Made by a program: the position numbers and the translations under genes
In this document: positions 4,049 through 38,721 of the stretch, in pieces
Layout of the letters: each line of letters begins with the position of its first letter
Position numbering within the stretch: position 1 is the stretch's first letter
Notes under the pieces: generated by a model
Told to the model about the DNA's origin: nothing
What the model saw: only the letters and a program-made list of their open reading frames with translations
Database searches by the model: none
Origin: a virus
Strand: one strand, 5' to 3'
DNA length: 41,494 nt
UHGV virus genome: UHGV-1357485

Positions 4049-6214
4049 TTATTGAGGTGTCTCGGCTACTCCGCCGGAGGGGATTTGAACTTGACGCATA
4101 AGATTCGCGAAATCCATGCGTTGTGAATGAGTCTGGTCTGCATCTTTAAGAAGCAGCTCAGCGTTAGCACGAGCGTCTTTGCTGCGCTGTTGCTGGAATT
4201 GACCTACGAGCTTGAGGTACTCACGCAGTTCTGCCTGCTTGTCGAGGTCCATATTGTTGAAGATTTCTGCAATCTTCGCGGCGTTGAGTTGGTTTTGGGC
4301 TTCAACCTTGGCGGCTTCAACCTGAATCTGCGCCTGTTGGTTCTCTGCCTTGAGCAATTCAGCCTGACCTTGCAGAAGGATACCCTGCGCCTGAATTTGC
4401 TCTGCTGATGGCTGCTGCGGCTGCTGTTGAGCCTGCTGTACCATCTCCATCTCTTCAGGTGTTTCTGGTTTCTTCAGCCCCATCATCACCAGTTGCTTGT
4501 TCGCGTACTCTCGCATCATCTCGACGCCTTTACCGTCAAGCAGCGTGAAGTATTGCAGCATCAGCATCTGGAACTCTGGAGTACCTTGTGGAACCTTGGT
4601 GAGTAACTCCTGAATCTCTGCGCGGTTCTGTTCCTTCATACTCTGGAAGGATGGTCCAACGTCTGTATAGCACTCATAGCGACCGCGAATGTCGTTGAGT
4701 GTGACCACATTGCCGGACTGGTAATCTACAACTTGCGCGTAGAGTTGAACGTCTTTCTCGCTTCCGTCTTCAAGAGTCAGCGTTACATGGCGAGGAACGT
4801 CATAAATATCGTTGACCATTGAGGCATAAATCTCGCCATCACGTCGCATTGCGGTAGCCAGGTTATCCTGAAACACGTATGTCTCAAGGTCTGCCCGCAT
4901 GTTCAGTTGATTGACGGTATCGAAAGCGACCTGACCATTTGCCGCCTGCGCATCCACGCCAAGACTAGCCACCTCTTTCACTGCGTTGGTGGCTGCCTCA
5001 AGCATGTAAGCGTTGGCTTGAGGCACTTCAGGGTTTTCCATGTAGGAGATTGGACCAATCGGAAGGTCGTTACCGTTTTCATCGGTCCTGTTCTGCAGAT
5101 AGTACGGATAGTCATCATTTCCACCGTACATGTATTCGTAGCCTTCGATTTGCTCAGGGAAGAAGGTCGGTTTCTTCTTCGGTGAACGAGCAACAATATC
5201 GGCGTTGAACGACATGATCATGTTACGAAGGCGTTGACCATCTTTCGTCAGCCTTACCACTCCTTCGTAGCACTCCTTGTCACCAGCGAATGACCATTCG
5301 CCATACACTGGAACGATTGGAATATGCTCTCCGGCTATCTTCTCGCGGTCTTTCAGTATCTGCGTGCAAGTGATGATCGACTTATACACACGCCGACGCT
5401 TCACCTTGCGCTCTGCTACCTTAATGAATCCACGATTAGCCAGGTCGTCGATAACGTCTTTAATATCCTGCTGGTAATAGCTGACCGGCTCACCTGTCAG
5501 CGGGTCGCGGTAGATGAAAACTTTCTCTTTCTTCTCTTCTACCTCGTAATACTCAGCGACGTAGACGACATCATTCGATACCCACGGAAACAGCCATGTA
5601 TCGTTCGGATTCTGGAAAGATGGCAGGGTGTCAGGATCAATACCGTAATCCTCTGCGAACTCTTTCCATCCATTGCGTGACAAAGCGTTAATCACCGTGC
5701 AGTGCTTAGCGTCGCTCTTATCCATCTGCTTGCTGTTGGCGTCCCATATGACGTGTGAGCAGGCTTCATGGATTGGCAGGCGTCTGATTACCTGGTTGTT
5801 GCTTGTTGGATCGTTGTCTTCGTACTGTGTGACCAGACGCCATGCACCAACGCCGGACTCTATCTGCTCACGAACGCCAACGTTAACGGCAATTTTTGCC
5901 GTGTTATGGCGCATATCGGTACGATACATTCCCATCAACACATCGGCAGCATCAGGATTAGCTCCGTCTTTTGGTCTGAAGAGAACGTCGATAGGGTTAC
6001 GGCGCATCTCTGCGACCAGCTTCCTGACCACCGGGCGAACAACATCGAATTGTCCGCGATATTGCAGGGTAGTGTAGTTTGATAGCCAGTCATCCCATTG
6101 CGACACTCGGCTAAAATACAGGTCATTTGTCGCCTCGGTTCTGGCTTCATCGCTCGCCATCCAGTCCGCGTCAAACTTACACAGAATGGAATTGAGTCTG
6201 TTTTCGTCGGCCAT
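4049..6214 (-). CDS. portal protein, P22 gp1-like (721 aa)
   Basis: Size and position after terminase; Q-rich C-terminal helical barrel region typical of P22 portal. Confidence 0.85.
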
Positions 6215-29104: not shown

Positions 29105-31645
29105 CTAAATTATCTGCGTCACTGACAATGCTTTCTTTAACACCACTCCTCCGCTCGTTGTTGCTCCCTTTGAGTACTCAAAGGAGATATTGGCTGAAAT
29201 GCCAAGATTCTCATCAGGACAATACCACCAAATTCCAATAGGGAGCACAGATGCCTTGTCATAACTGACAGTGCGATCATACGACGACTGGTACCCATTG
29301 AAGTCATACCATTTAAACCCAGTAATTGCGTTGCCAGCAATCATGCAATCAGTGCTCATAACTACACCAAACGCATTCTCAATATTAGATGCAACTAATA
29401 TGGCACTCATTGCGATATTCCTAAAGCTACATGACGTCACAGAGTATCCATTTGTATTTGCGTTTATAACTCCTATTTCTCCAAGGAAAGTCGTTGTCCT
29501 TATAGATCCATTAAAAAAAGATGTTGATTTTGTCCCTCTAAGACACACTCCCACATCAGACTCAAACGCGCTATCAGATATATCGATATACGTTGAACTT
29601 ACTGATGGATTATTCTTATAAAAGCTAACTCCGTAATTTAGATTATTGAAATTACAACTATTAACCCTTACAGATGCTACTCTTGCATCATATAAATAAA
29701 GGCCTGCCGTCATCCCTTCAAGGTGTGTGTCGTTTAATGGAAATACTGCATTATCCCCAGCCTCGTTAGGATCATTCATTAATGTTTTAGGGTTTGTGAA
29801 TTTATTTTTAATTATCGATGTAAACTCATCACAAAAAAAGTCATGTGATGCGCTATTAATTACCTTAAACCCTGAGAATCCGAATGGCTTCCCACCAGAG
29901 ATTATTGCCAAACAAAATGCTTGCGCCCCACCGCGTATTCTATATTGATTTGATTTTGATTCAAATTTAAAATTGCCTTGTAATGTTGAGTTGGTGATAC
30001 AACTAAAAGAGTTACCTATGTATGATACGTTATTATTATATGATGACGTTATGCTATAGCTGTTTACTTTATTTCCAGATATAAGAACATTATCACAAAA
30101 AAATTGAGCACATATCCCTGATTTTGATGTAACAACATTATCAGACATTATGCTATGAATAACCATTGAGTGAAAAGTTATGCCCCAATGACCATGGCTA
30201 TACGAAGTTGATATTAATGGATCGTTTATTATATTTCCAGTGCAGTTAACATAACAAACTTGCCTATATACTCCTATTGTTGAATCATTCAAACCAAGAG
30301 TTGAGCAAATGTTATCTTTAATAGAGCAAACAGAACTTGATGTGGCATAGCTAAACATAGCTTCTGGGATATTCCCTGTTAATCTATTCCTCTCGAATCT
30401 ACCAGAATAACAATAATATCGCATCTCAACATGGACATTATGGAAGTTACAACCAATCACTTCTGGCTCGATCTGAGACAAAAGCATGATTCTTCTTAGA
30501 GCATTGCTACTGCTTTTCATCGTCACACCATCTTTAATTTTGAATGGCGTAAGGTTACCTGTTGGGAACCCAAATTTCGCAGTCCCAGCCACCTGATTTA
30601 CCACCAGAGGTTGCGCCAAAATAGCCTTATTGGTAGTTGTATGACCTATAATTTTTGTTACCTGAATGAACTGAGATTGGTATCCATTCAAGTTAAGTGT
30701 AAGTGCCAACCCATCTATGCTGTCAGCAGGTGTGGTGGATTTTTCCGCTTCATCAATACAGAACGGATATCCATTATCAATGACGACATATTGCCCTGTG
30801 CGATCTACACCATCGAGATATACCTCAGAGTGCCCTGCAGATGCAGGCTGAGAAAAAACTGTCATAGTTGGGAAGTCATATGGCTCAACCCTAAAATGAT
30901 TACCCAATGTTATTGTGCCACGACCATATATACCTTTTGCCCCGGCTGGCGCTGTATAATCTGTTGTGGTGGTAAGGTCAGCTCCTGTAATGTTTACTTC
31001 TTCTCCGAAGTTAAACGCTGCCGTCAGTGCCTGCTCGGTTGTTACAAACCTATTGGTGTAGTTAAGGATATGGTTTAAATCATATCCGTTAAGATTCCCT
31101 ACAGACTTCCAGTTTGAATCTGGTGAACTACCAGGAGGGACAGTTAATGGAACTGACAGATCACCAGTATAAATGTAATACCACCCAGTTGATGAATAGA
31201 ATAGTGCCTGATATTTACTTGTTATCGTTGCACCAGAAGCAAAGGATACATTTTGCAGGCGTTTATAAACATTAAATCTAAAATTTTCATTAGCGTATAA
31301 AGAAAACTGATCTGGGTCGTACCCTAAAACATTAGGGAAGTAGAACTGCTGCATGCCGTAAGAATCGTATACCGCCATAGAATGGCCTTTCACAGTTACG
31401 AATTTGGCAATCTGCCCGTTATATACAGGATACCCGCCAGAGTTAATGATGATTGGCTGTGCAACAGGAACGTGAGAACCATCTTCGTTCTCCACATAAA
31501 CCTGAATCTGGTTTTCAGGATTTACTGGGTCAGTATCAATTTTACCGATATAAATTTTGCCATTGGCTACGGCTTTAAAAGAACGCGCCATAGTGAAGAG
31601 TTGCGAAGGCATCGACACGATCACATTGGCTGTAATGTCTGTCAT
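29105..31645 (-). CDS. tailspike protein: P22 gp9-like head-binding N-terminus plus divergent beta-helix receptor-binding/depolymerase region (846 aa)
   Basis: N-terminus [13 protein letters not shown]...[23 protein letters not shown]... resembles P22 tailspike; distal two-thirds AT-rich, Asn/Ser/Cys-rich. Confidence 0.85.
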
Positions 31646-31703
31646 TTAATTTGCTCCAGATGAAAGGAATCGCCGCAGCATGGCTACGGTGAATTTTGGG
31701 CAT

Positions 31704-31734
31704 AAAAAACCCAGCCGAAGCTGGGTTGGTTTTT
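31704..31734. terminator. bidirectional intrinsic terminator upstream of the tailspike gene
   Basis: AAAAAA-CCCAGC-CGAA-GCTGGG-TTGGTTTTT, works on either strand. Confidence 0.55.
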
Positions 31735-31748
31735 ATAAAAAGATTTAA

Positions 31749-32474
31749 TTAGGCTGCGGTAGAAACATTAACCAGATTTCTCAATACTTCAACTCCTTTT
31801 GAGTTGTAGCGGAACGCCTCTACCTGTTTGCTGGAATGCGCAGATTTATCTAGGAAGAACTTGCCGTACTGCTCAGTTTTGAGGTTGTTTGCGTTAGCAA
31901 TGCGACCAATCTTGTTGGCCGTTACTCCCAGCTGCTCTGCAACCTCCCCTGCTGAGTAGTAATGCTCTTCTATTGCTGGAAGAGGTATTGCATTAAAACC
32001 AACGATCGGGTTGATTATGCTTGCTGCCGCAGTCTGCTTTGCTTCCGGCGCAAGATTTGGCATCAAATCGAACAGATTGGTAACAGCGTCAACCGTCATT
32101 TTCAATGTTCGCGCCTGGCGATACTCAACAAGTCCACTCGCTGATTTACCGCTTTTAATGTGCGCTTCCTGCATACTTTCAAGTTTGTCTACAAGTGTTC
32201 GGCGAACTGCTTTAGATTCGCGAGCAGCAACACGAAGCGCCTGCTTGATAGTCATGGAGATAACATCAATGTCAGCCCCGTTTTTCCGACCTACACTTTT
32301 TGTGTAGGTCTCGCCTTCCAATTCATCCTCAATTTTCTCGATGAATTTGTTGTTACGTACTGATGGCTCTCCACATAACTTGCGAGCTTCATTAACCATC
32401 ATCAGAAGACTTTGGCTGTCAATGGTTTTATCCGTGACAACGGATCCGATGTTTGCTACATTCTTAAAAGTCAT
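31749..32474 (-). CDS. antirepressor C-terminal (ANT/KilAC-like) module, 241 aa; in frame with the upstream Ant ORF across a TGA
   Basis: C-terminal ...HYYSAGEVAEQLGVTANKIGRIAN... resembles ANT domain; track ORF starts directly after the Ant stop in the same frame. Confidence 0.45.
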   Translation of the reverse strand: MTFKNVANIGSVVTDKTIDSQSLLMMVNEARKLCGEPSVRNNKFIEKIEDELEGETYTKSVGRKNGADIDVISMTIKQALRVAARESKAVRRTLVDKLESMQEAHIKSGKSASGLVEYRQARTLKMTVDAVTNLFDLMPNLAPEAKQTAAASIINPIVGFNAIPLPAIEEHYYSAGEVAEQLGVTANKIGRIANANNLKTEQYGKFFLDKSAHSSKQVEAFRYNSKGVEVLRNLVNVSTAA

Positions 32475-32561
32475 TAGGCATTCCTTATGTGGTAGTAAGG
32501 GTGTGACATAGGCCGCCAGCAGCACACTGGCGGTTTTCTTTTGCGCCGTCCTGTGCACCAA

Positions 32562-33200
32562 TCAATTAATCCATTCCTCGCCGCGAAGTTTTTCCAGCAT
32601 TGGCTGAGCGTTCTTTACGACAAAATTGTTGGTATCAAGATTCTTCATTTCACGAAGAAGCGATTTCTTGGTTTCTTCTGACATGTAGCGAGTCTCATAT
32701 GCAATATCGTAAATCCTTCCTGAAAGCTCAGAACCAATTTGCTTCATTCCTGGGTAGATGTGTTTGCACATTTGTTGACTCTTCTCCATCCACAATTGTA
32801 AGTAGCAGAGATTAACCAGCTCTTCGTCAGTGAACTGTTTTGCAATCGGTGAGCATTCTGCCTGCCGCTCCAAAATATCCAGCACCCAGCGGCGGAACTC
32901 TTTAGCCTTGGGCGTAGAAGCAAACATCGCCACCAAGTGAGCGCCTCGGAGCGAGTAAACTCTGACCGATTTGTTACGTAAGCTATTGTTTATCCCGTTG
33001 ACCTTCATATTGAGGGTCAATGACATTGAGTCGGAAAACTCGTCAGCATTACGGGCATAAATTTGGCTGATGGCATCAGTTTTTTTATAGCCGAGAGCCT
33101 TAGCTAGTTCGGTGGAGGTAAACCAGATAGACCCACCCTCTGTTACAGGGTTAAAGGTGAATCCTTGGAAGTTATAATCTGATTTTGCTACAATGTTCAT
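32562..33200 (-). CDS. ant: antirepressor Ant, BRO-N/AntA N-terminal module (212 aa)
   Basis: ...WFTSTELAKALGY...AKEFRRWV... resembles AntA/Bro-N; AAGGAAA RBS before ATG 33200; follows arc as in P22 immI. Confidence 0.6.
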   Translation of the reverse strand: MNIVAKSDYNFQGFTFNPVTEGGSIWFTSTELAKALGYKKTDAISQIYARNADEFSDSMSLTLNMKVNGINNSLRNKSVRVYSLRGAHLVAMFASTPKAKEFRRWVLDILERQAECSPIAKQFTDEELVNLCYLQLWMEKSQQMCKHIYPGMKQIGSELSGRIYDIAYETRYMSEETKKSLLREMKNLDTNNFVVKNAQPMLEKLRGEEWIN

Positions 33201-33273
33201 GTTAGTTTCCTTGCATACGGTTACTGACATAGAGGCCCGGTTTGTGTTCGCGCACTGCCGGGCTTCACTATTT

Positions 33274-33447
33274 TTACTGGGCATTAACTCTTTCCTCTCT
33301 CAGGCTTTTAGCCAGTCGCTGCACAATCGCAGAGTTGATAGAAATTCCATCCATTTCAGCAACACGTCTAATCTCCTCCTTCATTCGCGCTGGCAAACGA
33401 AGCTGGAAACTTTGACTTTTACGACCTGTGTAAAGCACATCTTTCAT
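33274..33447 (-). CDS. arc: Arc-like ribbon-helix-helix repressor (57 aa)
   Basis: ...FQLRLPARMKEEIRRVAEMDGISINSAIVQRL... RHH signature; GGAGG RBS before ATG 33447. Confidence 0.7.
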   Translation of the reverse strand: MKDVLYTGRKSQSFQLRLPARMKEEIRRVAEMDGISINSAIVQRLAKSLREERVNAQ

Positions 33448-33469
33448 AAGTAATCCTCCCACAATGATA

Positions 33470-33485
33470 CCAACTTGGTTCTAGA
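33470..33485. promoter_or_regulatory. 16-bp perfect palindrome TTGGTTCTAGAACCAA in the divergent arc/mnt promoter region (candidate operator)
   Basis: Perfect inverted repeat between divergent RHH genes; coordinates approximate. Confidence 0.45.
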
Positions 33486-33558
33486 ACCAATTTAACACCA
33501 TTTATTTTGATGTCAAGTTGGTGCTATTGTTTAGCGAACATCTTTACGTTGAGGTCAT

Positions 33559-33879
33559 ATGAGCAAGTTCCCTAGTCATGAAATGGATAGGTTCAATATC
33601 AGGCTTCCGGCAGGAATGCGGGATGCTATAGCTGAACGAGCCAAACGTAACGGCAGATCAATGAACTCAGAGATTGTTCAGATACTGGAAGATGCCTTGA
33701 ATGCAGAAAATACACTCGGGGAAATAGCAGATAAAATCAACAGCGTCTCGGTTCCGCTAAATGTTGATGCGCTAGTTCAACTTCAAGCCCAGGTTATCGC
33801 CATGCAAAAAGAAATACAGGAAAAGTTCAGAGAGCAGAACGAAAAGTTGAGAGAACTGCTAAACAAAAAACCCACCTGA
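33559..33879 (+). CDS. mnt: Mnt-like ribbon-helix-helix repressor (106 aa)
   Basis: ...FNIRLPAGMRDAIAERAKRNGRSMNSEIVQILEDAL... resembles P22 Mnt; divergent from arc-ant. Confidence 0.7.
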   Translation: MSKFPSHEMDRFNIRLPAGMRDAIAERAKRNGRSMNSEIVQILEDALNAENTLGEIADKINSVSVPLNVDALVQLQAQVIAMQKEIQEKFREQNEKLRELLNKKPT

Positions 33880-33896
33880 CGGTGGGTTAATTTTTG
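33865..33896. terminator. bidirectional terminator overlapping the mnt stop
   Basis: AAAAAA-CCCACC-TGAC-GGTGGG-TTAATTTTT. Confidence 0.5.
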
Positions 33897-33977
33897 CCTT
33901 TTTTGGACCATATTGACTACTCATAAAATGAGATCAATATTTAATCGCCCAATAACGGGTGCATGTTGAGGTATATC

Positions 33978-34157
33978 ATGGCGAAAAAACCAGGTGAAAA
34001 CACAGGAAAAAACGGCGGAATATACCAAGAAGTTGGCCCACGCGGCGGTAAGAAAGACAATTTTGCCACCGTCAAGGACAACGAAAGGCTTCCACCAACA
34101 ACAAAGCCAGGTCATGGCTGGGTATTAGATAAGCGAACTCCAGACAGCAAAAAGTAA
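33978..34157 (+). CDS. small Gly/Lys-rich protein (59 aa), possibly YjzC-like
   Basis: Own promoter-like TTGACT at about 33913; GAGGT RBS; MAKKPGENTGKNGGIYQEVGPRGG...; family assignment tentative. Confidence 0.45.
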   Translation: MAKKPGENTGKNGGIYQEVGPRGGKKDNFATVKDNERLPPTTKPGHGWVLDKRTPDSKK

Positions 34158-34170
34158 TAATCAAGCCGGG

Positions 34171-34536
34171 TCACTCCGGCTTTTTGATATGTCGCTCGCA
34201 GAACTCAACAAGCCTGCTCATTAAGTAGCAGTAAGTCTCGTTGGCTCTTCCTGGTTCAACATCAACACCGACCCTTGAGCAGATATCGAATGCCATGTGA
34301 GCGCACTCATGGGCAATAGTAGATAGTTTGCCATTGAACACACCTATCACATGCAAAACACCATTCTCGCTGCTCATTGTATGAGACGCTCCGTTGGCAT
34401 CCGAGTCCTGCACGTCCACGCCAAGTTTTTGATGCAGGCGTTGCCATTCTGGAAAGTCTCTGCAAAACACAATCGTACCGCTCTCAAAGAGCGGTACGAG
34501 CATCTTTGGTACGTTTCCAATGTTAACTTTTTTCAT
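34171..34536 (-). CDS. hypothetical protein with HECAH (HExxH-like) motif (121 aa) at the P22 sieA position
   Basis: ATG 34536 preceded by AGGA; motif IAHECAHMAFD; follows the ejection genes on the late strand. Confidence 0.45.
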   Translation of the reverse strand: MKKVNIGNVPKMLVPLFESGTIVFCRDFPEWQRLHQKLGVDVQDSDANGASHTMSSENGVLHVIGVFNGKLSTIAHECAHMAFDICSRVGVDVEPGRANETYCYLMSRLVEFCERHIKKPE

Positions 34537-34566
34537 GGTATCCTGCGAAAAACTAAGGAGGTTGGT

Positions 34567-34956
34567 GTGAAGCAATTTCTTGCTGCTATGTTCTTATTCA
34601 TATCTTTTGGGGCTACAGCAGAGTGCTGGGTCGTTGGAGATATGCGCGGAATAAGCTATTCAGAGCGAAATAATTTCCATCCGGAAGAAGATGGTTTTAG
34701 TGGAACATTTATCATTAAGACAAGCGGTGAAGATGCCAGCATCACATATTCTGGGACGGATGCTGGCGGCATGGCTTACAAAGCATTGTCTAAAAACTCC
34801 ATCATAGGAATCGGCGCGAATGGCGAAACTCAACGAGTTATCGACTCATGGGTAATACATCCTAATGGAACAGTTTTAATGTCGAAAACCATTTCCGGTT
34901 ATGGAAATATGGATTCAACCAAAGCTTTTGTTGGAAAAGTAAAAAGAAAATGCTAA
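34567..34956 (+). CDS. secreted protein with signal peptide (129 aa, GTG start)
   Basis: AAGGAGG 5 nt upstream of GTG 34567; N-terminal K-then-hydrophobic stretch ending ATA-E (signal-peptidase-like). Confidence 0.55.
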   Translation: MKQFLAAMFLFISFGATAECWVVGDMRGISYSERNNFHPEEDGFSGTFIIKTSGEDASITYSGTDAGGMAYKALSKNSIIGIGANGETQRVIDSWVIHPNGTVLMSKTISGYGNMDSTKAFVGKVKRKC

Positions 34957-34966
34957 GGATGTTGAT

Positions 34967-35173
34967 ATGAAAAAATTTACTATTGGGTTATTTGCAATCT
35001 TTTTACTTGTTTTGTCTGCATTTACTGGTTATGGGGTTAAATATTCATCAATAACTGACGGTAACAAGATTGAATGTAAATACCTAAGCGCTTCTGGAAA
35101 ATTCTCCAGAAATTATTGGTACTCGGATAATGGGATCATGGGGATTAGCAATTGTCCTTTAGTTGACAGATAG
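34967..35173 (+). CDS. small secreted protein/lipoprotein candidate (68 aa)
   Basis: MKKFTIGLFAIFLLVLSAFTG... signal peptide; AT-rich; 10 bp after the previous gene. Confidence 0.5.
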   Translation: MKKFTIGLFAIFLLVLSAFTGYGVKYSSITDGNKIECKYLSASGKFSRNYWYSDNGIMGISNCPLVDR

Positions 35174-35233
35174 CCATCCTTGGCTTTATGGGGATTAACA
35201 TGGTAACGGTTGGTTGGATTATCTCGTTCCTTG

Positions 35234-37387
35234 TTACATCTTTTGGTCGCCGTCACTGGCTGTAGTATCTTGCTGAGATAACCATGTAATAATCCCAGTG
35301 CGAGCAATGGTTTTTGCTTCATCTGTTGATAGGGTTTTCTCCCATCTCTTAAATACCCCAGATTGCATCAGTTTCCTTTCTATTGCGCGTCTCACTTCTG
35401 CTCTGTCTACTGGTGCGTTTTGCAGGCGAAATAGCATTGATTTAAACTCAGGAGAAGACAGTAGAGCATCAGCAGCCTTTATCCTGCTTGTTTTCCCTGA
35501 CATCAATGCGGACGTTATCACCCCTGTTGCACCTACACCAGGAAGACCAGATAAGCTTGTAACACCTTCCGCCGCAGCAGCTTTTGAGGCTATTCCATAA
35601 ATTTTTGCTAGACTACCCTTTTCCTTCAGAAAGTTATTAACTTGCTGATCCACAAGGCTGCTAGCATACTGCTTACCAGTATTGAGTCTATTCATAGCCT
35701 TGGCTGCTTGATAAATCGTATCAAGGCGCTTTGATGCATCTGTGCCAATAGCATCACGGAGAGCCTTCATATTGGCCCCATTGCGTGACATTCCGTTATA
35801 CCATTTTACAAATCCATCAACCCCTAATTGCTGACCTGGTGATTTAGCATAGCTGGTAAATGCTTTATTCATTGAGGTGAGCGCAACTTCCTGCCGCATA
35901 TCCTTTGGAATTGACTTCATTAATTGCCTAAAGTCACCACCGTTTCCTTTTGCCATATTAACAACGGCACTTTCAACTTTTGGAATTGCTGATTGCTGAA
36001 GTTTTCTACCCAAAACGGTTACGGCATCATCTTCAATGGATTTTCGTGTTTTTACCAACTCCTTACCAAGCGTCCATAACTCCCCTGCGCCATATTTTTC
36101 TGCGACAGCCTGTTGGTCATCTGTTATAGCTGCATATAACTTTTTAAGAACACCTGTTTCTTCATCCTTGAATGGGCCAGAGCCTTTGCCAATAGCTTGC
36201 CCAACCTGCTTTCTAGCGAGATCTAAACGCCCATACGTTGGCAAGGTGTTTGGATCAAGTCGGTTCAATGTCCGCTTCATTATTGGAGATAATTCATCAA
36301 TTCCACCTATGTCATCAGCAAAATCCTCTAAAAAATTCAATGTATTGGTTGCCTCAATACGGTCTCTTACTGGAACCTTTTCGGCAATTTTGTTGTAGAT
36401 GTTATCTGACTGATTTTGTAATGATGAAATGGTTTTATCAAAATTATCTGCAAGCCTGTCAGAAACCAGTTGCTTATCAAGGTTTCCCCCAAATGAAGTT
36501 ATCATTTCATCAGCTTTTCTTCCTAATTCAGTAATAAAGCGCTTATGCGCCTCACTAATCTCTGTTCCAGGGAGGCTTGCCACTGCATTATCAAGAGCCC
36601 TGACAGCAGGATTATTAGAGATCATTCCTGGAGTGGCATAATTTTCCAGTTCTAGCTCACGGATGGCATTTATCGCGTTAAAATCAGGATTAACTTCATC
36701 GGCGAAACCTTGAATAGCTCGTTGTCCGCCAATAAATTTATTATCCATTGCGCCAGCAGCTTTCTTTAACGTTGCTTTAGATGATTTACTCCCCATCCCT
36801 ACGGATGAGCGATAAATATCCCCGGCACTATTTTTAATTTTTCCTGCAATCTTCCCAAGCGCTGGACCAACAATCTCGGCTACAGGGCCAGCCACAGCGC
36901 CAATAGCAGCGCCGGAAGCAACATCGCTATTTGTTCCATTGGCTACAATAGCCCCTTCTCCAGCACCAAGCCCTGCGGCGGCAGCCAGCCTTGCCGCTCC
37001 TTTCGGAACCTGAGAAATAATCCCACCACCACTAACAAATGGCGCTGCTTGTCCAACAAACTCACCAACATCTTGTGCGGTTGATGGTTTTGCCGCTAAC
37101 TTCTGCTGTAGAGACTGAATTGCGGCTTGCTCTTCTGGTGTCATATCCTGAAACAGGCCAACACCTTTACCAACATCCATCAATCCACTGAGAACGCCAT
37201 ACATAAAACGGTCGAAACCGTTAGCATTATTAACAACATTTTCCTGTCTGGAATTTTCCTCTGGTGAAACCAAAGGAGATTGCTGCTGTTCTGGTTGGGA
37301 ATCAAGCACAAAGCCATCAGGAAGTTGTGAGTTATCAGGCTGTTCATCCAGAACAAACCCCTCTGGTAAACCTACATTGGTTGCCAT
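35234..37387 (-). CDS. ejection (internal virion) protein, P22 gp16-like (717 aa)
   Basis: Position and order 26-14-7-20-16; Ala/Gly-rich. Confidence 0.65.
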
Positions 37388-38721
37388 TGTCCGTTCCTGT
37401 AAATAATTTTCTGACCAGTTTTAGGATTTTTCGCGGTCATACCTTCTCGAAATGTTTGACCGCCAGATGTTGCTTGTTGTGTCTGTTGTTGCGCAGGCTG
37501 CTGAATATCTTCATACAGCTTGGCTTTTCTGGATTGCAATTGCTTAGTTAGTCCGCTGGGGAGAGAATCTCCATAAGTTGAAAGATAATCATCCATTTGC
37601 TGATTAAACTTTTCGCCTTCAGTATTTGCCATCAGTTTTGAGGTGTTGATTAAGTCCTGGACTTGCTCATTATTCAGCATCTTGCCGTTAGATAATTGGC
37701 TAACATAGTTACCAAGTGTGCCGAATATTCCATCAGTGCGTTTTACCTGCACTTGCTCACCTTCGCGTACCACAGATTGCGGATCCAGCGATTTCATATA
37801 GTTGAAAATCATTCCCAACTGCGCGGCTGGAGTGTTGCGCTTCCCAAGGGCTTGTAGGTTGTCAGAAGCACTGCGCATTGCAGAATAATTCTTTGAGAAC
37901 CCATTAATATCACTATTCAGATCTCGAACAAGTTTTGGGTCAATCTTTCCGCTTTCCTGTTGTTTCATCCCTAATTCCTGCAACTTCAGGGCTACGTTAT
38001 CATTATGCATTTGTGCCCGCTGAGCCCTGTCTAGTTGAGCGTTCTGGATATTTGCCCATCCTCTCGCATTCTCCATGTCAGCCTGACGGATGCTTTCATC
38101 CAATCGCCCTTTCTCAAGTTGGCGACCAGCCATCTTGTCCTGAACAGCAAACGCCTTTTCTGGTCCAAGCGCACCGAGAGACATAGTAGTCAACATGTGT
38201 GATAGCTGCTCTGGATTCTGGATACCTGTCTGAATCATCCAGTCAGCATTCGCCCCCACGCGATTTAACCTGTCCTTGTTGTCAGTAATGAATTTACTGT
38301 AGGCTTCCGGTCCCTGAGAAAGAGCGACGTTAGCCCTCATGGCTAAATCGCCCATATCGTTGCGTTGCTGCTCATTAAGACCGGAAAACGCCTGTTGTGC
38401 CTGCGCCACAAACGCTGGATTTTCCTGGGCAAACTTAAATAGTCCCGATGGATCACCAGAAGCCCATGCATCAGCGTGAACCTTATTGAACGCACTAATA
38501 GCTTTCTGTTGCTGTTCCTGATTGTAAATATCAGCAACTCCAGCCAGACCACGTAACGCGGTCAGGCCAACGTTATTTGCACCTGAGCGAGCCAGTTCAT
38601 TGTTTTCGCGGATCAGACCAAGCGTTGCGTTAATGTCGCTTGCCTTTGGCGCATTCTCATTTTGCGTACCGATGCCAGCCAGAAAACCACCAGAATTAAT
38701 ACCCTGTTGCCACGTAGCCAT
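37372..38721 (-). CDS. ejection protein, P22 gp20-like (449 aa)
   Basis: Position and size. Confidence 0.65.

What the first reader, a model, noticed from the sequence alone, without database searches (positions are those of the whole stretch)
33978..35173. Four-gene cargo cluster at the classical sieA (superinfection exclusion) locus
In P22 the interval between ejection gene 16 and mnt carries sieA. Here that slot holds four genes with no recognisable structural role. One is a 121-aa protein with an HECAH (HExxH-like) motif on the late strand. Two are signal-peptide proteins on the opposite strand (129 aa with AAGGAGG plus GTG start, and 68 aa) in AT-rich DNA. The fourth is a 59-aa Gly/Lys-rich protein with its own promoter-like element and terminator. 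Orientation and composition suggest a moron module expressed independently of late transcription, possibly acting at the cell envelope.
Basis: partly seen in the sequence, partly recalled or inferred. Interest (0 to 1): 0.65.

Follow-up and report, generated by a model that had tools for sequence, protein, structure and literature searches.

The report
Hex-like exclusion gene in sieA slot
In this P22-like phage only two of the four genes replace the superinfection-exclusion gene sieA, and one of those two is a secreted relative of phage 434 Hex, a protein already known to exclude P22, so the locus is a swappable exclusion cassette rather than a new four-gene unit.

Summary
They are not one cluster that replaces sieA.

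- **orf59a and the HECAH protein (HkcC):** both occur in P22 and HK620 themselves, next to sieA or hkcB. HkcC is 100% identical in both. The literature already lists them as unknown genes of the "ant moron".
- **The true sieA slot:** it starts exactly at a GTG. That GTG follows a conserved extended -10 (TGGTATCCT) and an AAGGAGG leader. Five phages are identical up to this GTG and then encode unrelated envelope proteins.
- **129-aa gene:** it is a homologue of phage 434 Hex ("heterologous exclusion" of P22), with hhalign probability 98.2% and the same PHROG 2651. The family has a signal peptide, a terminal Cys pair and a predicted 8-stranded beta-barrel. It recurs at prophage-expressed sites: the sieA slot, just after cI, and tail-cluster moron sites.
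- **68-aa gene:** it is a YobH-family protein. In other phages it sits alone in this slot, so two cassettes are stacked here.
- **HkcC:** it is a late-strand gene with an invariant HExxH-x19-NE motif and no fold match to known zincins.

The most likely function is periplasmic exclusion of P22-like phages. This is untested.

The parts
33869..33888 (.). Hairpin after the mnt-like gene (tMNT equivalent). It marks the left edge of the block shared with P22 and HK620, which starts at 33863.
   Evidence: Terminator scan. Fold -14.8 kcal/mol, z = -4.3. HK620 annotation 'tMNT'. Homology block boundaries.
33913..33941 (+). Promoter-like site TTGACT-17-AATATT upstream of orf59a.
   Evidence: Consensus scan only, 9 of 12 matches. 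The region as a whole has no more promoter-like sites than shuffled sequence.
33978..34157 (+). orf59a, 59 aa, a soluble Gly/Lys-rich YjzC-like protein. It is the same gene as P22 orf59a and HK620 'HkcD'.
   Evidence: PHROG 3202 E = 7e-31. Pfam YjzC 19.4 bits, below the 25-bit cut-off. One residue differs from P22, dN/dS 0.14. P22 and HK620 annotations. UniRef calls it 'YjzC family protein'.
34163..34182 (.). Bidirectional hairpin between the convergent genes orf59a and hkcC.
   Evidence: Found on both strands. Folds at -12.6 and -12.1 kcal/mol. Annotated 't mnt' in P22 and 'bidirectional terminator tORF59A' in HK620.
34171..34536 (-). hkcC homologue, 121 aa, a cytoplasmic late-strand protein with an invariant HExxH-x19-NE motif (H76, E77, H80, N99, E100).
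34473..34499 (-). Perfect 12-bp hairpin plus a U-rich tail inside the 5' part of hkcC, on the late strand.
   Evidence: Fold -24 kcal/mol, z = -5.8. The stem is imperfect in P22, HK620 and others. Function unknown.
34534..34569 (+). Conserved slot leader. It holds the extended -10 TGgTATCCT (34536-34544), the SD AAGGAGG (34555-34561) and the GTG start (34567-34569). It is the PsieA-proximal region and the left junction of the cassette.
   Evidence: Identical in P22, HK620, SBF22, L099 and the window up to the GTG, with complete divergence after it. 59 of 80 loci keep the exact -10, SD and GTG although the -100..-41 region has 31 different sequences. 85 bp upstream of sieA suffices for function in P22 (PMC10883804).
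34567..34956 (+). Hex-family gene, 129 aa. Signal peptide residues 1-18 (..ATA|ECW). The mature 111-aa protein is predicted to be a periplasmic 8-stranded beta-barrel with a C20/C129 pair.
34967..35173 (+). YobH-family gene, 68 aa. It has an N-terminal hydrophobic segment, a GYGV motif and Cys37/Cys63. It starts 10 nt after the Hex-like stop, and its SD overlaps that stop codon.
   Evidence: Pfam PF13996 39.2 bits against a 27-bit cut-off. 35% identical to K-12 YobH. A 65%-identical variant sits alone in the slot in L099 and L100. dN/dS 0.25. GC 33.3%.
35234..37387 (-). Gene 16 (ejection protein, 717 aa). It converges on the cassette and forms the right boundary of the slot.
   Evidence: PHROG 6704 and 770, 'DNA transfer protein'. 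99% identical in the E. coli PSJ-36 prophage, which has the same Hex-like plus YobH-like stack.

Best explanation
The 1.2-kb interval is three independent modules of the P22-type 'ant moron'. It is not one four-gene unit.

1. **orf59a** is a small soluble YjzC-like protein downstream of mnt.
2. **hkcC** is a late-strand cytoplasmic protein with a gluzincin-like HExxH-x19-NE motif.

Both of these are constant companions of sieA in P22 itself.

3. **The real sieA slot** begins at a GTG behind a conserved extended -10/SD leader (PsieA). Here it carries two stacked cassettes that form a bicistronic unit: a Hex-family gene and a YobH-family gene.

**Proposed mechanism.** In the lysogen, PsieA transcribes both genes.

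- The Hex-like protein is exported by Sec and cut after ATA18. It folds into a disulfide-closed 8-stranded beta-barrel in the periplasm.
- The YobH-like protein is anchored in, or released from, the inner membrane, with a roughly 45-aa Cys-pair domain outside.
- There they interfere with incoming P22-like phages. The most likely target is the gp7/gp20/gp16 trans-envelope DNA conduit. This would functionally replace the inner-membrane protein SieA.

**Shown here:** gene structure, homologies, junctions, conservation and genomic contexts.
**Inferred:** expression, export, disulfide formation, and the exclusion activity and its target.
For: **Slot anatomy.**
- P22, HK620, SBF22, L099 and the window are identical up to the GTG and unrelated after it. 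The downstream products are SieA, HkcB, a 75-aa two-TM protein, YobH-like and Hex-like, all with hydrophobic N-termini.
- The leader is kept in 59 of 80 loci despite 31 different upstream contexts.
- 85 bp upstream of sieA is enough for exclusion in P22 (PMC10883804).

**Hex homology.** tblastn gives full-length matches to 434 Hex, Sf6 gene 38, HK446, HK633 and Sf101, all beside the repressor gene. hhalign gives 98.2%, E = 4e-14. The HMM scores 58.5 bits, and 49.5 bits without the signal peptide. Both proteins fall in PHROG 2651.

**Hex function.** Lambda-imm434 lysogens of Salmonella exclude P22 and hex- lysogens do not (PMC3564112).

**Export.** Of 106 family representatives, 99 have a hydrophobic N-terminal stretch, 88 have an AxA-type cleavage site, 90 have a C-terminal Cys and 1 has a lipobox. 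None of the common C-terminal residues is aromatic. The published stable Hex fragment starts at E43, which is exactly the residue after the predicted cleavage site.

**Recurrence at prophage-expressed sites.**
- Just after CI.
- A tail-cluster moron site next to the tape-measure gene, beside RexAB in one case.
- Convergent with gp16 homologues.
- Tandem diverged paralogues in one slot.

**Mutual exclusivity.** None of the 80 Hex-slot loci, nor the window, has a SieA homologue or the SieA motif.

**Precedent for host-protein co-option.** HK97 gp15 is a YebO-derived exclusion moron (PMC3594210).
Against: - There are no expression or phenotype data for this locus.
- No terminator follows the cassette.
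- The barrel fold is generic and gives no hint of a ligand or partner.
- The only biochemical study of Hex assigns it a cytoplasmic role, blocking RecA-stimulated cleavage of the 434 and P22 repressors (PMC3564112). The stage at which Hex blocks P22 is not given in the papers I could read.
- The only phenotype reported for a YobH protein is host-cell invasion by Salmonella (PMC6726612).
- The Hex-like gene occurs with many different gp16 and gp20 types, so there is no sign of co-variation with the proposed target.
- PADLOC has no match.
Confidence: 0.55

Rival explanations
1. The two exported proteins are lysogenic-conversion or virulence cargo. They change the host's envelope or its interaction with animal cells and do not exclude phages.
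For: [quoted passage not shown] The yobH-like gene is very AT-rich at 33% GC, like many acquired virulence genes. Some Hex-family members lie in chromosomal islands that are not obviously phage.
Against: The phage protein is only 35% identical to chromosomal YobH. The Hex family has a genetic exclusion phenotype against P22. The slot otherwise holds SieA. Family members recur at classical exclusion sites, the rex position and the HK97 gene-15 position.
Confidence: 0.2
2. The Hex-like protein acts in the cytoplasm as a 'repressor protection protein'. [quoted passage not shown]
For: The sHex fragment inhibits RecA-stimulated cleavage of the 434 and P22 repressors in vitro. hex- lysogens induce 30-fold more often in recA+ cells only (PMC3564112).
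Against: The signal peptide, AxA site and terminal Cys pair are conserved family-wide. sHex begins exactly at the predicted signal-peptidase site. Here and in 80 other loci the gene is far from the repressor and behind PsieA. Members also occur in tail-gene clusters. The paper never considers export. hex overlaps the end of cI, so polar effects on repressor level are possible; this last point is my inference.
Confidence: 0.1
3. All four genes form one co-functional module, for example with HkcC as a protease that processes the exported proteins.
For: The genes are adjacent, and the hkcC start codon overlaps the -10 of the slot promoter.
Against: The genes assort independently: 19 of 80 Hex loci have hkcC plus orf59a, and 1 of 80 has yobH-like. 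hkcC and orf59a accompany SieA, HkcB and other cassettes unchanged. HkcC has no export signal. It sits in the late operon next to terS in other phages.
Confidence: 0.05
4. The ORFs are decaying remnants with no function.
For: The region is a known hotspot of insertions and deletions with damaged genes in some phages (PMC2629481). Some loci keep only the first codons of hkcC.
Against: All four reading frames are intact. dN/dS is 0.03-0.27. HkcC has no amino-acid change across about 2.7% nucleotide divergence. The families span several genera.
Confidence: 0.03

Closest known systems
Phage 434 Hex ('heterologous exclusion' protein; annotated 'repressor protection protein'); Sf6 gene 38
   Same: It is homologous over its full length to the 129-aa protein: 27-29% identity, hhalign 98.2%, same PHROG 2651. 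It shares the signal-peptide/ECW start, the ETW motif and the FVG..G.C end. It is a prophage-expressed accessory gene, and genetics show that it excludes P22.
   Different: Hex lies in the PRM operon and overlaps the end of cI. This gene lies in the late region behind PsieA, convergent with gene 16. The published Hex mechanism is cytoplasmic, whereas the sequence features found here predict a periplasmic protein.
P22 SieA (types A, B and C)
   Same: It uses the same slot, the same promoter-proximal leader and the same GTG start position. It is a prophage-expressed envelope protein in a P22-like phage. The two are mutually exclusive in the loci examined.
   Different: There is no sequence similarity and no FxRYPxEAxxFNK motif. 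SieA is a 3-4 TM inner-membrane protein. The cargo here is a secreted beta-barrel plus a 68-aa single-segment protein.
HK620 hkcB / hkcC / 'HkcD', and P22 orf59a
   Same: hkcC is 100% identical at protein level and orf59a/HkcD is nearly identical. Their flanking hairpins are the same DNA at 97.3%.
   Different: HK620 fills the slot with HkcB, an N-terminal hydrophobic segment followed by a charged helical region, which is unrelated to either gene here.
HK97 gp15 (YebO-derived superinfection-exclusion moron)
   Same: It is a precedent for a small chromosomal enterobacterial envelope protein family being copied into a prophage as an exclusion factor. A Hex-family member occupies the equivalent site between the tail chaperone and tape-measure genes. 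yebO and yobH are near neighbours in K-12.
   Different: It belongs to a different protein family. No exclusion has been shown for any YobH-like protein.
Chromosomal YobH (E. coli b4536; Salmonella invasion factor)
   Same: It is a Pfam PF13996 member with the same N-terminal hydrophobic segment, GYGV motif and two Cys.
   Different: It is only 33-35% identical. The phage protein is shorter (68 against 79 aa), phage-borne, much more AT-rich, and sits in an exclusion slot.
Gluzincin metallopeptidases (thermolysin-type HExxH...NE)
   Same: HkcC has an invariant HExxH followed 19 residues later by NE. From my own knowledge, this matches the thermolysin spacing (H146 to E166).

Membership tests
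SieA (P22 superinfection exclusion A, types A-C) | Sequence similarity to SieA, including the conserved FxRYPxEAxxFNK motif | tested here: not met
   tblastn of P22 SieA against the window finds nothing below E = 3.6. The motif search is positive only in P22 itself, and is absent from the window and from the 80 loci.
SieA (P22 superinfection exclusion A, types A-C) | Integral inner-membrane protein with 3-4 transmembrane helices | tested here: not met
   Each of the two proteins has a single N-terminal hydrophobic segment. The 129-aa protein is predicted to be all-beta.
SieA (P22 superinfection exclusion A, types A-C) | Located between the gene 16 and gene 9 homologues of a P22-like prophage, behind PsieA | tested here: met
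   The sequence is identical to P22 up to the sieA start codon.
SieA (P22 superinfection exclusion A, types A-C) | Blocks DNA injection by P22-like phages | not testable with these tools
   This needs plating, K+ efflux and DNA-entry assays.
Hex family (PHROG 2651; phage 434 Hex) | Significant full-length profile similarity to Hex | tested here: met
   PHROG 2651 gives 5.6e-61 for the window protein and 1.4e-58 for Hex. hhalign gives 98.2%, E = 4e-14, over 128 columns. The HMM scores 58.5 bits.
Hex family (PHROG 2651; phage 434 Hex) | Family hallmarks: N-terminal signal-like segment ending before xCW, a conserved Trp (ETW/SW) and a C-terminal Cys | tested here: met
   Alignments A1 and A4. Statistics on 106 representatives.
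Hex family (PHROG 2651; phage 434 Hex) | Expressed from the prophage | not testable with these tools
   Only a conserved extended -10/SD leader and the orientation support this. There are no RNA data.
Hex family (PHROG 2651; phage 434 Hex) | Excludes superinfecting P22 | not testable with these tools
   This is known only for 434 Hex, from the literature (PMC3564112).
YobH (Pfam PF13996) | Score above the Pfam gathering threshold | tested here: met
   39.2 bits against a 27-bit cut-off, E = 7.6e-10.
YobH (Pfam PF13996) | N-terminal hydrophobic segment, GYGV motif and two conserved Cys, as in K-12 YobH | tested here: met
   Alignment A3 and BLASTP at 35% identity, E = 2e-11.
YjzC (Pfam PF14168), for orf59a | Score above the Pfam gathering threshold | tested here: not met
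   19.4 bits against a 25-bit cut-off, E = 1.3e-3, although the match covers 47 of 55 profile positions. UniRef nevertheless names it a YjzC family protein. I treat it as YjzC-like only.
Zincin / gluzincin metallopeptidase, for HkcC | Invariant HExxH with a downstream Glu as third ligand | tested here: met
   H76, E77, H80, N99 and E100 are invariant in 20 homologues and in 11 further homologues from seven other genera. Cys78 inside the motif is not invariant.
Zincin / gluzincin metallopeptidase, for HkcC | Zincin fold or a profile match to a peptidase family | tested here: not met
Moron (independent transcription unit added to a phage operon) | Own promoter, deviant base composition, and presence or absence among otherwise syntenic relatives | tested here: met
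   Conserved extended -10 leader. GC of 33-41% against 46%. Alternative cassettes at the same junction.
Moron (independent transcription unit added to a phage operon) | Own terminator | tested here: not met
   No terminator-like site lies between the yobH-like stop (35173) and the gene 16 stop (35234). In 73 of 80 loci the Hex-like stop is 24 nt from the gene 16 stop.

The most novel reading that the evidence does not exclude
Hex-family proteins, including the classical phage 434 Hex, are secreted periplasmic beta-barrels. They exclude P22-type phages by acting on genome delivery in the envelope. Phages have placed them at three different prophage-expressed sites: after cI, in the P22 sieA slot, and at tail-cluster moron sites. 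If so, the published cytoplasmic 'repressor protection' mechanism would be secondary or an artefact of using a fragment in vitro. The YobH-like partner would be a second, host-derived exclusion factor, in parallel with YebO and HK97 gp15.
Probability: 0.4. Interest if true: 0.7.

Novelty: new member of a known kind. Interest (0 to 1): 0.5.

Why it matters
SieA is found in only 22 of 66 sequenced P22-like phages (PMC10883804). What the other phages carry in that position has been left as "genes of unknown function".

This analysis shows that the slot is a precise, promoter-equipped cassette site. Its commonest alternative occupant is a relative of Hex, and that gene is present in 147 of 5,426 complete E. 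coli genomes. Two old observations from different phages, sieA and hex, both of which exclude P22, are thereby linked.

The analysis also gives a concrete and cheap test of how Hex works. The question is whether Hex acts in the periplasm or the cytoplasm, and the prediction made here conflicts with the only published mechanism.

For annotation, many database records start the gene at an internal ATG. This removes the charged N-terminus of the signal peptide.

Tried and rejected
- **PADLOC, NCBIfam and Pfam** gave nothing for the 129-aa and 121-aa proteins. Pfam on 71 family members also gave nothing consistent.
- **PDB sequence search** with both family profiles found nothing meaningful.
- **Foldseek against viral models** gave no hit at E of 0.001 or better. 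The afdb50 library was unavailable.
- **Rfam** found nothing credible in 31000-36500.
- **PSJ-36 193-aa gene:** I checked whether this gene, upstream of the cassette, is a type B SieA. It is not: it is soluble and has no similarity to SieA.
- **Linkage to gp16/gp20 type:** I looked for linkage with the Hex-like gene and found none. The yobH-like gene does travel with this gp16 type in 5 of 6 cases, but adjacency alone could explain that.
- **ImmA/IrrE-like protease:** an assignment of HkcC to this family has no profile support.
Full report
**What the window is.** The window is a complete, circularly permuted genome of a P22-like phage (Lederbergvirus type). The late genes lie on the minus strand: a Q-like antiterminator, endolysin, Rz, terS, terL and portal. 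The same strand continues through gene 20 (37372-38721), gene 16 (35234-37387) and the tailspike (29105-31645). Between gene 16 and the tailspike lies an immI-type region. It holds two antirepressor-like genes, an Arc-like gene (33274-33462, -) and a 106-aa Arc-family Mnt-like gene (33559-33879, +). The finding covers the part between mnt and gene 16.

**Check of the observation.** All four ORFs are present at the stated coordinates.

- orf59a: 33978-34157 (+).
- The 121-aa HECAH protein: 34171-34536 (-).
- A 129-aa ORF that starts at GTG 34567, with AAGGAGG 5 nt upstream, and ends at 34956 (+).
- A 68-aa ORF: 34967-35173 (+).

The two plus-strand proteins each have one N-terminal hydrophobic segment. 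Their GC content is 41.0% and 33.3%, against 46.1% for the window. orf59a has a promoter-like site and is followed by a hairpin. Each ORF matches a PHROG family with E between 7e-31 and 6e-61. dN/dS against diverged copies is 0.03-0.27. The window has no sieA or hkcB homologue.

**The cluster is not one unit and does not as a whole replace sieA.** Window 33863-34569 is 97.3% identical to both P22 and HK620. This block contains orf59a, the bidirectional hairpin, the HECAH gene and the region annotated as PsieA in P22. P22 and HK620 encode a 100% identical 121-aa protein, called hkcC in HK620. P22 Orf59a differs by one residue. [quoted passage not shown] It adds that this region is the most fluid part of the late operon (PMC2629481). 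Only the two exported proteins therefore occupy the position of sieA.

**A precise cassette junction.** An alignment of the window with P22, HK620, an E. coli SBF22 prophage and an IMG/VR contig (L099) shows identity up to and including a GTG, and complete divergence after it. The five downstream genes encode:

- SieA;
- HkcB;
- a 75-aa two-TM protein;
- a YobH-like protein;
- the 129-aa protein.

All five have hydrophobic N-termini. Immediately upstream lies CATGGTATCCTGC-N3-AAAACTAAGGAGGTTGGTGTG. This contains an extended -10 (TGgTATCCT, 34536-44), a strong SD and the start codon. Among 80 viral contigs that carry the 129-aa gene, 59 keep this exact -10/SD/GTG. Yet the -100..-41 region has 31 different sequences and most loci lack hkcC. 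In P22, 85 bp upstream of sieA is enough for exclusion from a single copy (PMC10883804). I infer that the leader is both the promoter core and the recombination joint of the slot.

**The 129-aa protein is a Hex-family protein.**

- *Search results.* Word-indexed searches found only close relatives. A full HMMER scan found 119 clusters of proteins of about 125-135 aa, with no Pfam family.
- *Homologues in named phages.* tblastn against phage genomes found full-length homologues at 27-28% identity next to the repressor gene of phage 434, Sf6 (gene 38), HK446, HK633 and Sf101. In 434 this gene is annotated "repressor protection protein" and overlaps the end of cI.
- *This gene is hex.* Lambda-imm434 lysogens of Salmonella exclude P22 and hex- lysogens do not, hence the name "heterologous exclusion" (PMC3564112, citing Susskind and Botstein 1980).
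- *Strength of the homology.* hhalign gives 98.2% probability, E = 4e-14, over 128 columns. An HMM built from the close family scores Hex at 58.5 bits, and at 49.5 bits without the signal peptide. Both proteins hit PHROG 2651, labelled "unknown function".
- *Not noted before, as far as I could see.* The 2024 SieA paper does not mention Hex or 434.

**Predicted biology of the family.**

- *Export signals.* Of 106 full-length representatives, 99 have a hydrophobic N-terminal stretch and 88 have an AxA-type site just before a conserved x-C-W. Ninety have a Cys in the last six residues and only one has a lipobox. The common C-terminal residues are not aromatic. This points to a Sec-exported, soluble periplasmic barrel closed by a disulfide, not an outer-membrane protein or a lipoprotein.
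- *A coincidence in the Hex paper.* The stable fragment sHex begins at E43 of the authors' 158-aa ORF. By my count this is exactly the residue after the predicted cleavage site ANS|ECW. That paper never mentions a signal peptide, membrane or periplasm. It does report that full-length Hex stops growth when overexpressed.
- *Annotation.* Many database records start the 129-aa gene at an internal ATG, giving 122 aa and truncating the signal peptide. A variant group that starts with ATG has the same 129-aa length, which supports the long form.

**Genomic contexts of the family.** In the sampled phage and prophage loci the gene sits apart from the lytic transcription units. It is opposite the neighbouring late or structural genes, or co-oriented with the repressor.

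- *The P22-type slot.* All 80 viral loci place the gene between immI and genes 16/20. In 73 of them the gene 16 stop lies 24 nt after its stop.
- *A distant P22-like phage.* It carries two tandem paralogues, 36% identical to each other, in the slot.
- *A giant gp16-domain protein.* One member is convergent with a 1362-aa protein of this kind.
- *After the repressor.* Two members lie directly after a CI-type repressor, the position of lambda rexAB.
- *A siphovirus tail cluster.* One member lies next to the tape-measure gene, the site of the HK97 gene 15 exclusion moron. In one contig it is beside RexA/RexB.
- *Chromosomal islands.* Some members lie in islands with no obvious phage genes.

None of the 80 slot loci, nor the window, contains a SieA homologue or the SieA motif. 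The gene is present in 147 of 5,426 complete E. coli genomes.

**The 68-aa protein.** It is a YobH-family member (Pfam 39.2 bits against a 27-bit cut-off). It is 35% identical to K-12 YobH and shares the GYGV motif and two Cys. It starts 10 nt after the Hex-like stop, and its SD overlaps that stop, so the pair is probably bicistronic.

It does not normally travel with the Hex-like gene:

- Only 1 of 80 viral loci and 4 of 147 E. coli genomes have the stacked pair.
- In L099 and L100 a 65%-identical variant sits alone in the slot, directly behind the leader and GTG, with the same gp16 type.

The window therefore stacks two alternative slot cassettes. The only experimental datum for YobH is a threefold invasion defect of a Salmonella mutant, plus a remark that the protein seems to be secreted (PMC6726612). 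There is a useful parallel in HK97 gp15, an exclusion moron derived from the chromosomal YebO family (PMC3594210). yebO and yobH are near neighbours in K-12.

**HkcC and orf59a.**

- *HkcC is a real, constrained gene.* It shows no amino-acid change across about 2.7% nucleotide divergence. Homologues occur in Xenorhabdus, Proteus, Pasteurellaceae, Kluyvera, Citrobacter, Mixta, Atlantibacter and Moraxella.
- *Motif.* H76, E77, H80, N99 and E100 are invariant, while the Cys inside HECAH is not. From my own knowledge, the HExxH-x19-NE spacing matches thermolysin-type gluzincins.
- *A late gene.* It has no export signal. It lies on the late strand, and in Citrobacter prophages it sits between Rz and terS. 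It is most likely a late lytic gene.
- *orf59a.* It is YjzC-like but scores below the Pfam threshold, and its function is unknown.

**Most likely mechanism.** PsieA drives a bicistronic transcript in the lysogen. Both products are exported. The Hex-like barrel, and possibly the YobH-like protein, then interfere in the periplasm or at the inner membrane with infection by P22-like phages. The most plausible target is the gp7/gp20/gp16 conduit that SieA also targets. The homologies, junctions and contexts are shown here. Expression, export, disulfide formation and the target are inferred.

The main counter-arguments are these:

- The published mechanism for Hex is cytoplasmic.
- There is no co-variation with gp16 or gp20 types.
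- The barrel fold is generic.

I put about 0.55 on the composite explanation. Of the rivals, I put 0.2 on a virulence or conversion role and 0.1 on the cytoplasmic repressor-protection role.

**Verdict.** The locus is a known variable region, and all four genes are already in databases as hypothetical, YobH-family or YjzC-family proteins. This is therefore a new member of known kinds, not a new system. What this analysis adds is the exact cassette junction, the link between the sieA slot and Hex, and the prediction that Hex-family proteins are secreted. That last point is directly testable.

Noticed in passing
window 34473-34499 (- strand): A perfect 12-bp hairpin (-24 kcal/mol, z = -5.8) followed by UUGUGUUUUG lies inside codons 13-22 of hkcC on the late strand. 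In P22, HK620 and others the stem has mismatches. It could attenuate non-antiterminated leftward transcription into immI and the tailspike gene.
   Followed up: partly
L122 (phage 434, OL657227) 2429-2905: The published stable Hex fragment 'sHex' starts at E43 of the authors' 158-aa ORF. This is exactly the residue after the predicted signal-peptidase site ANS|ECW of the 134-aa protein. The paper never considers export.
   Followed up: partly
window 34567-34956; database records: Many NCBI records annotate this gene as 122 aa, starting at the internal ATG (Met8). This removes the Lys-containing start of the signal peptide. The GTG start with AAGGAGG, and the ATG-starting 129-aa variants, support the longer form.
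   Followed up: yes
L115 3359-4164: A more distant P22-like phage carries two tandem Hex-family paralogues, 36% identical to each other, in the sieA slot. Such duplication and divergence is what would be expected under arms-race selection.
   Followed up: partly
L103 6001-7822 and L102 5207-6879: A Hex-family gene lies on the opposite strand inside a siphovirus tail cluster, next to the tape-measure gene. In one contig it is directly beside RexA/RexB genes.
   Followed up: partly
L101 (E. coli K-12) 4262-5165: yebO, mgrB and yobH are adjacent in K-12. YebO is the family from which the HK97 gp15 exclusion protein derives, and YobH is the family of the 68-aa slot protein here.
   Followed up: no
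window 31749-33284 (-) and 33559-33879 (+): The immI region has two adjacent antirepressor-like genes: PHROG 1726, and a Bro-N/P22_AR_C protein. Its Mnt-like protein is 106 aa, Arc-family with a C-terminal extension, against the 83-aa P22 Mnt.
   Followed up: no
L098 5225-5527 (-): In one contig the YobH-like slot gene is followed by a convergent 100-aa ORF with a lipobox-like LSGC signal, instead of gene 16. This may be another envelope cargo gene.
   Followed up: no
L004 2222-2803 and L008 5001-5579: A soluble 193-aa protein of unknown function is translationally coupled to the Arc-family gene, just upstream of the Hex-like cassette, in some E. coli prophages. It is not SieA.
   Followed up: partly
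window 33400-35700: The exact combination in this window is mnt-like, orf59a, hkcC, Hex-like, YobH-like and this gene 16. No record in the phage collection or in 5,426 complete E. coli genomes covers it at 80% or more. The closest is E. coli E7476, which shares the 701-bp cassette at 99.3%.
   Followed up: yes
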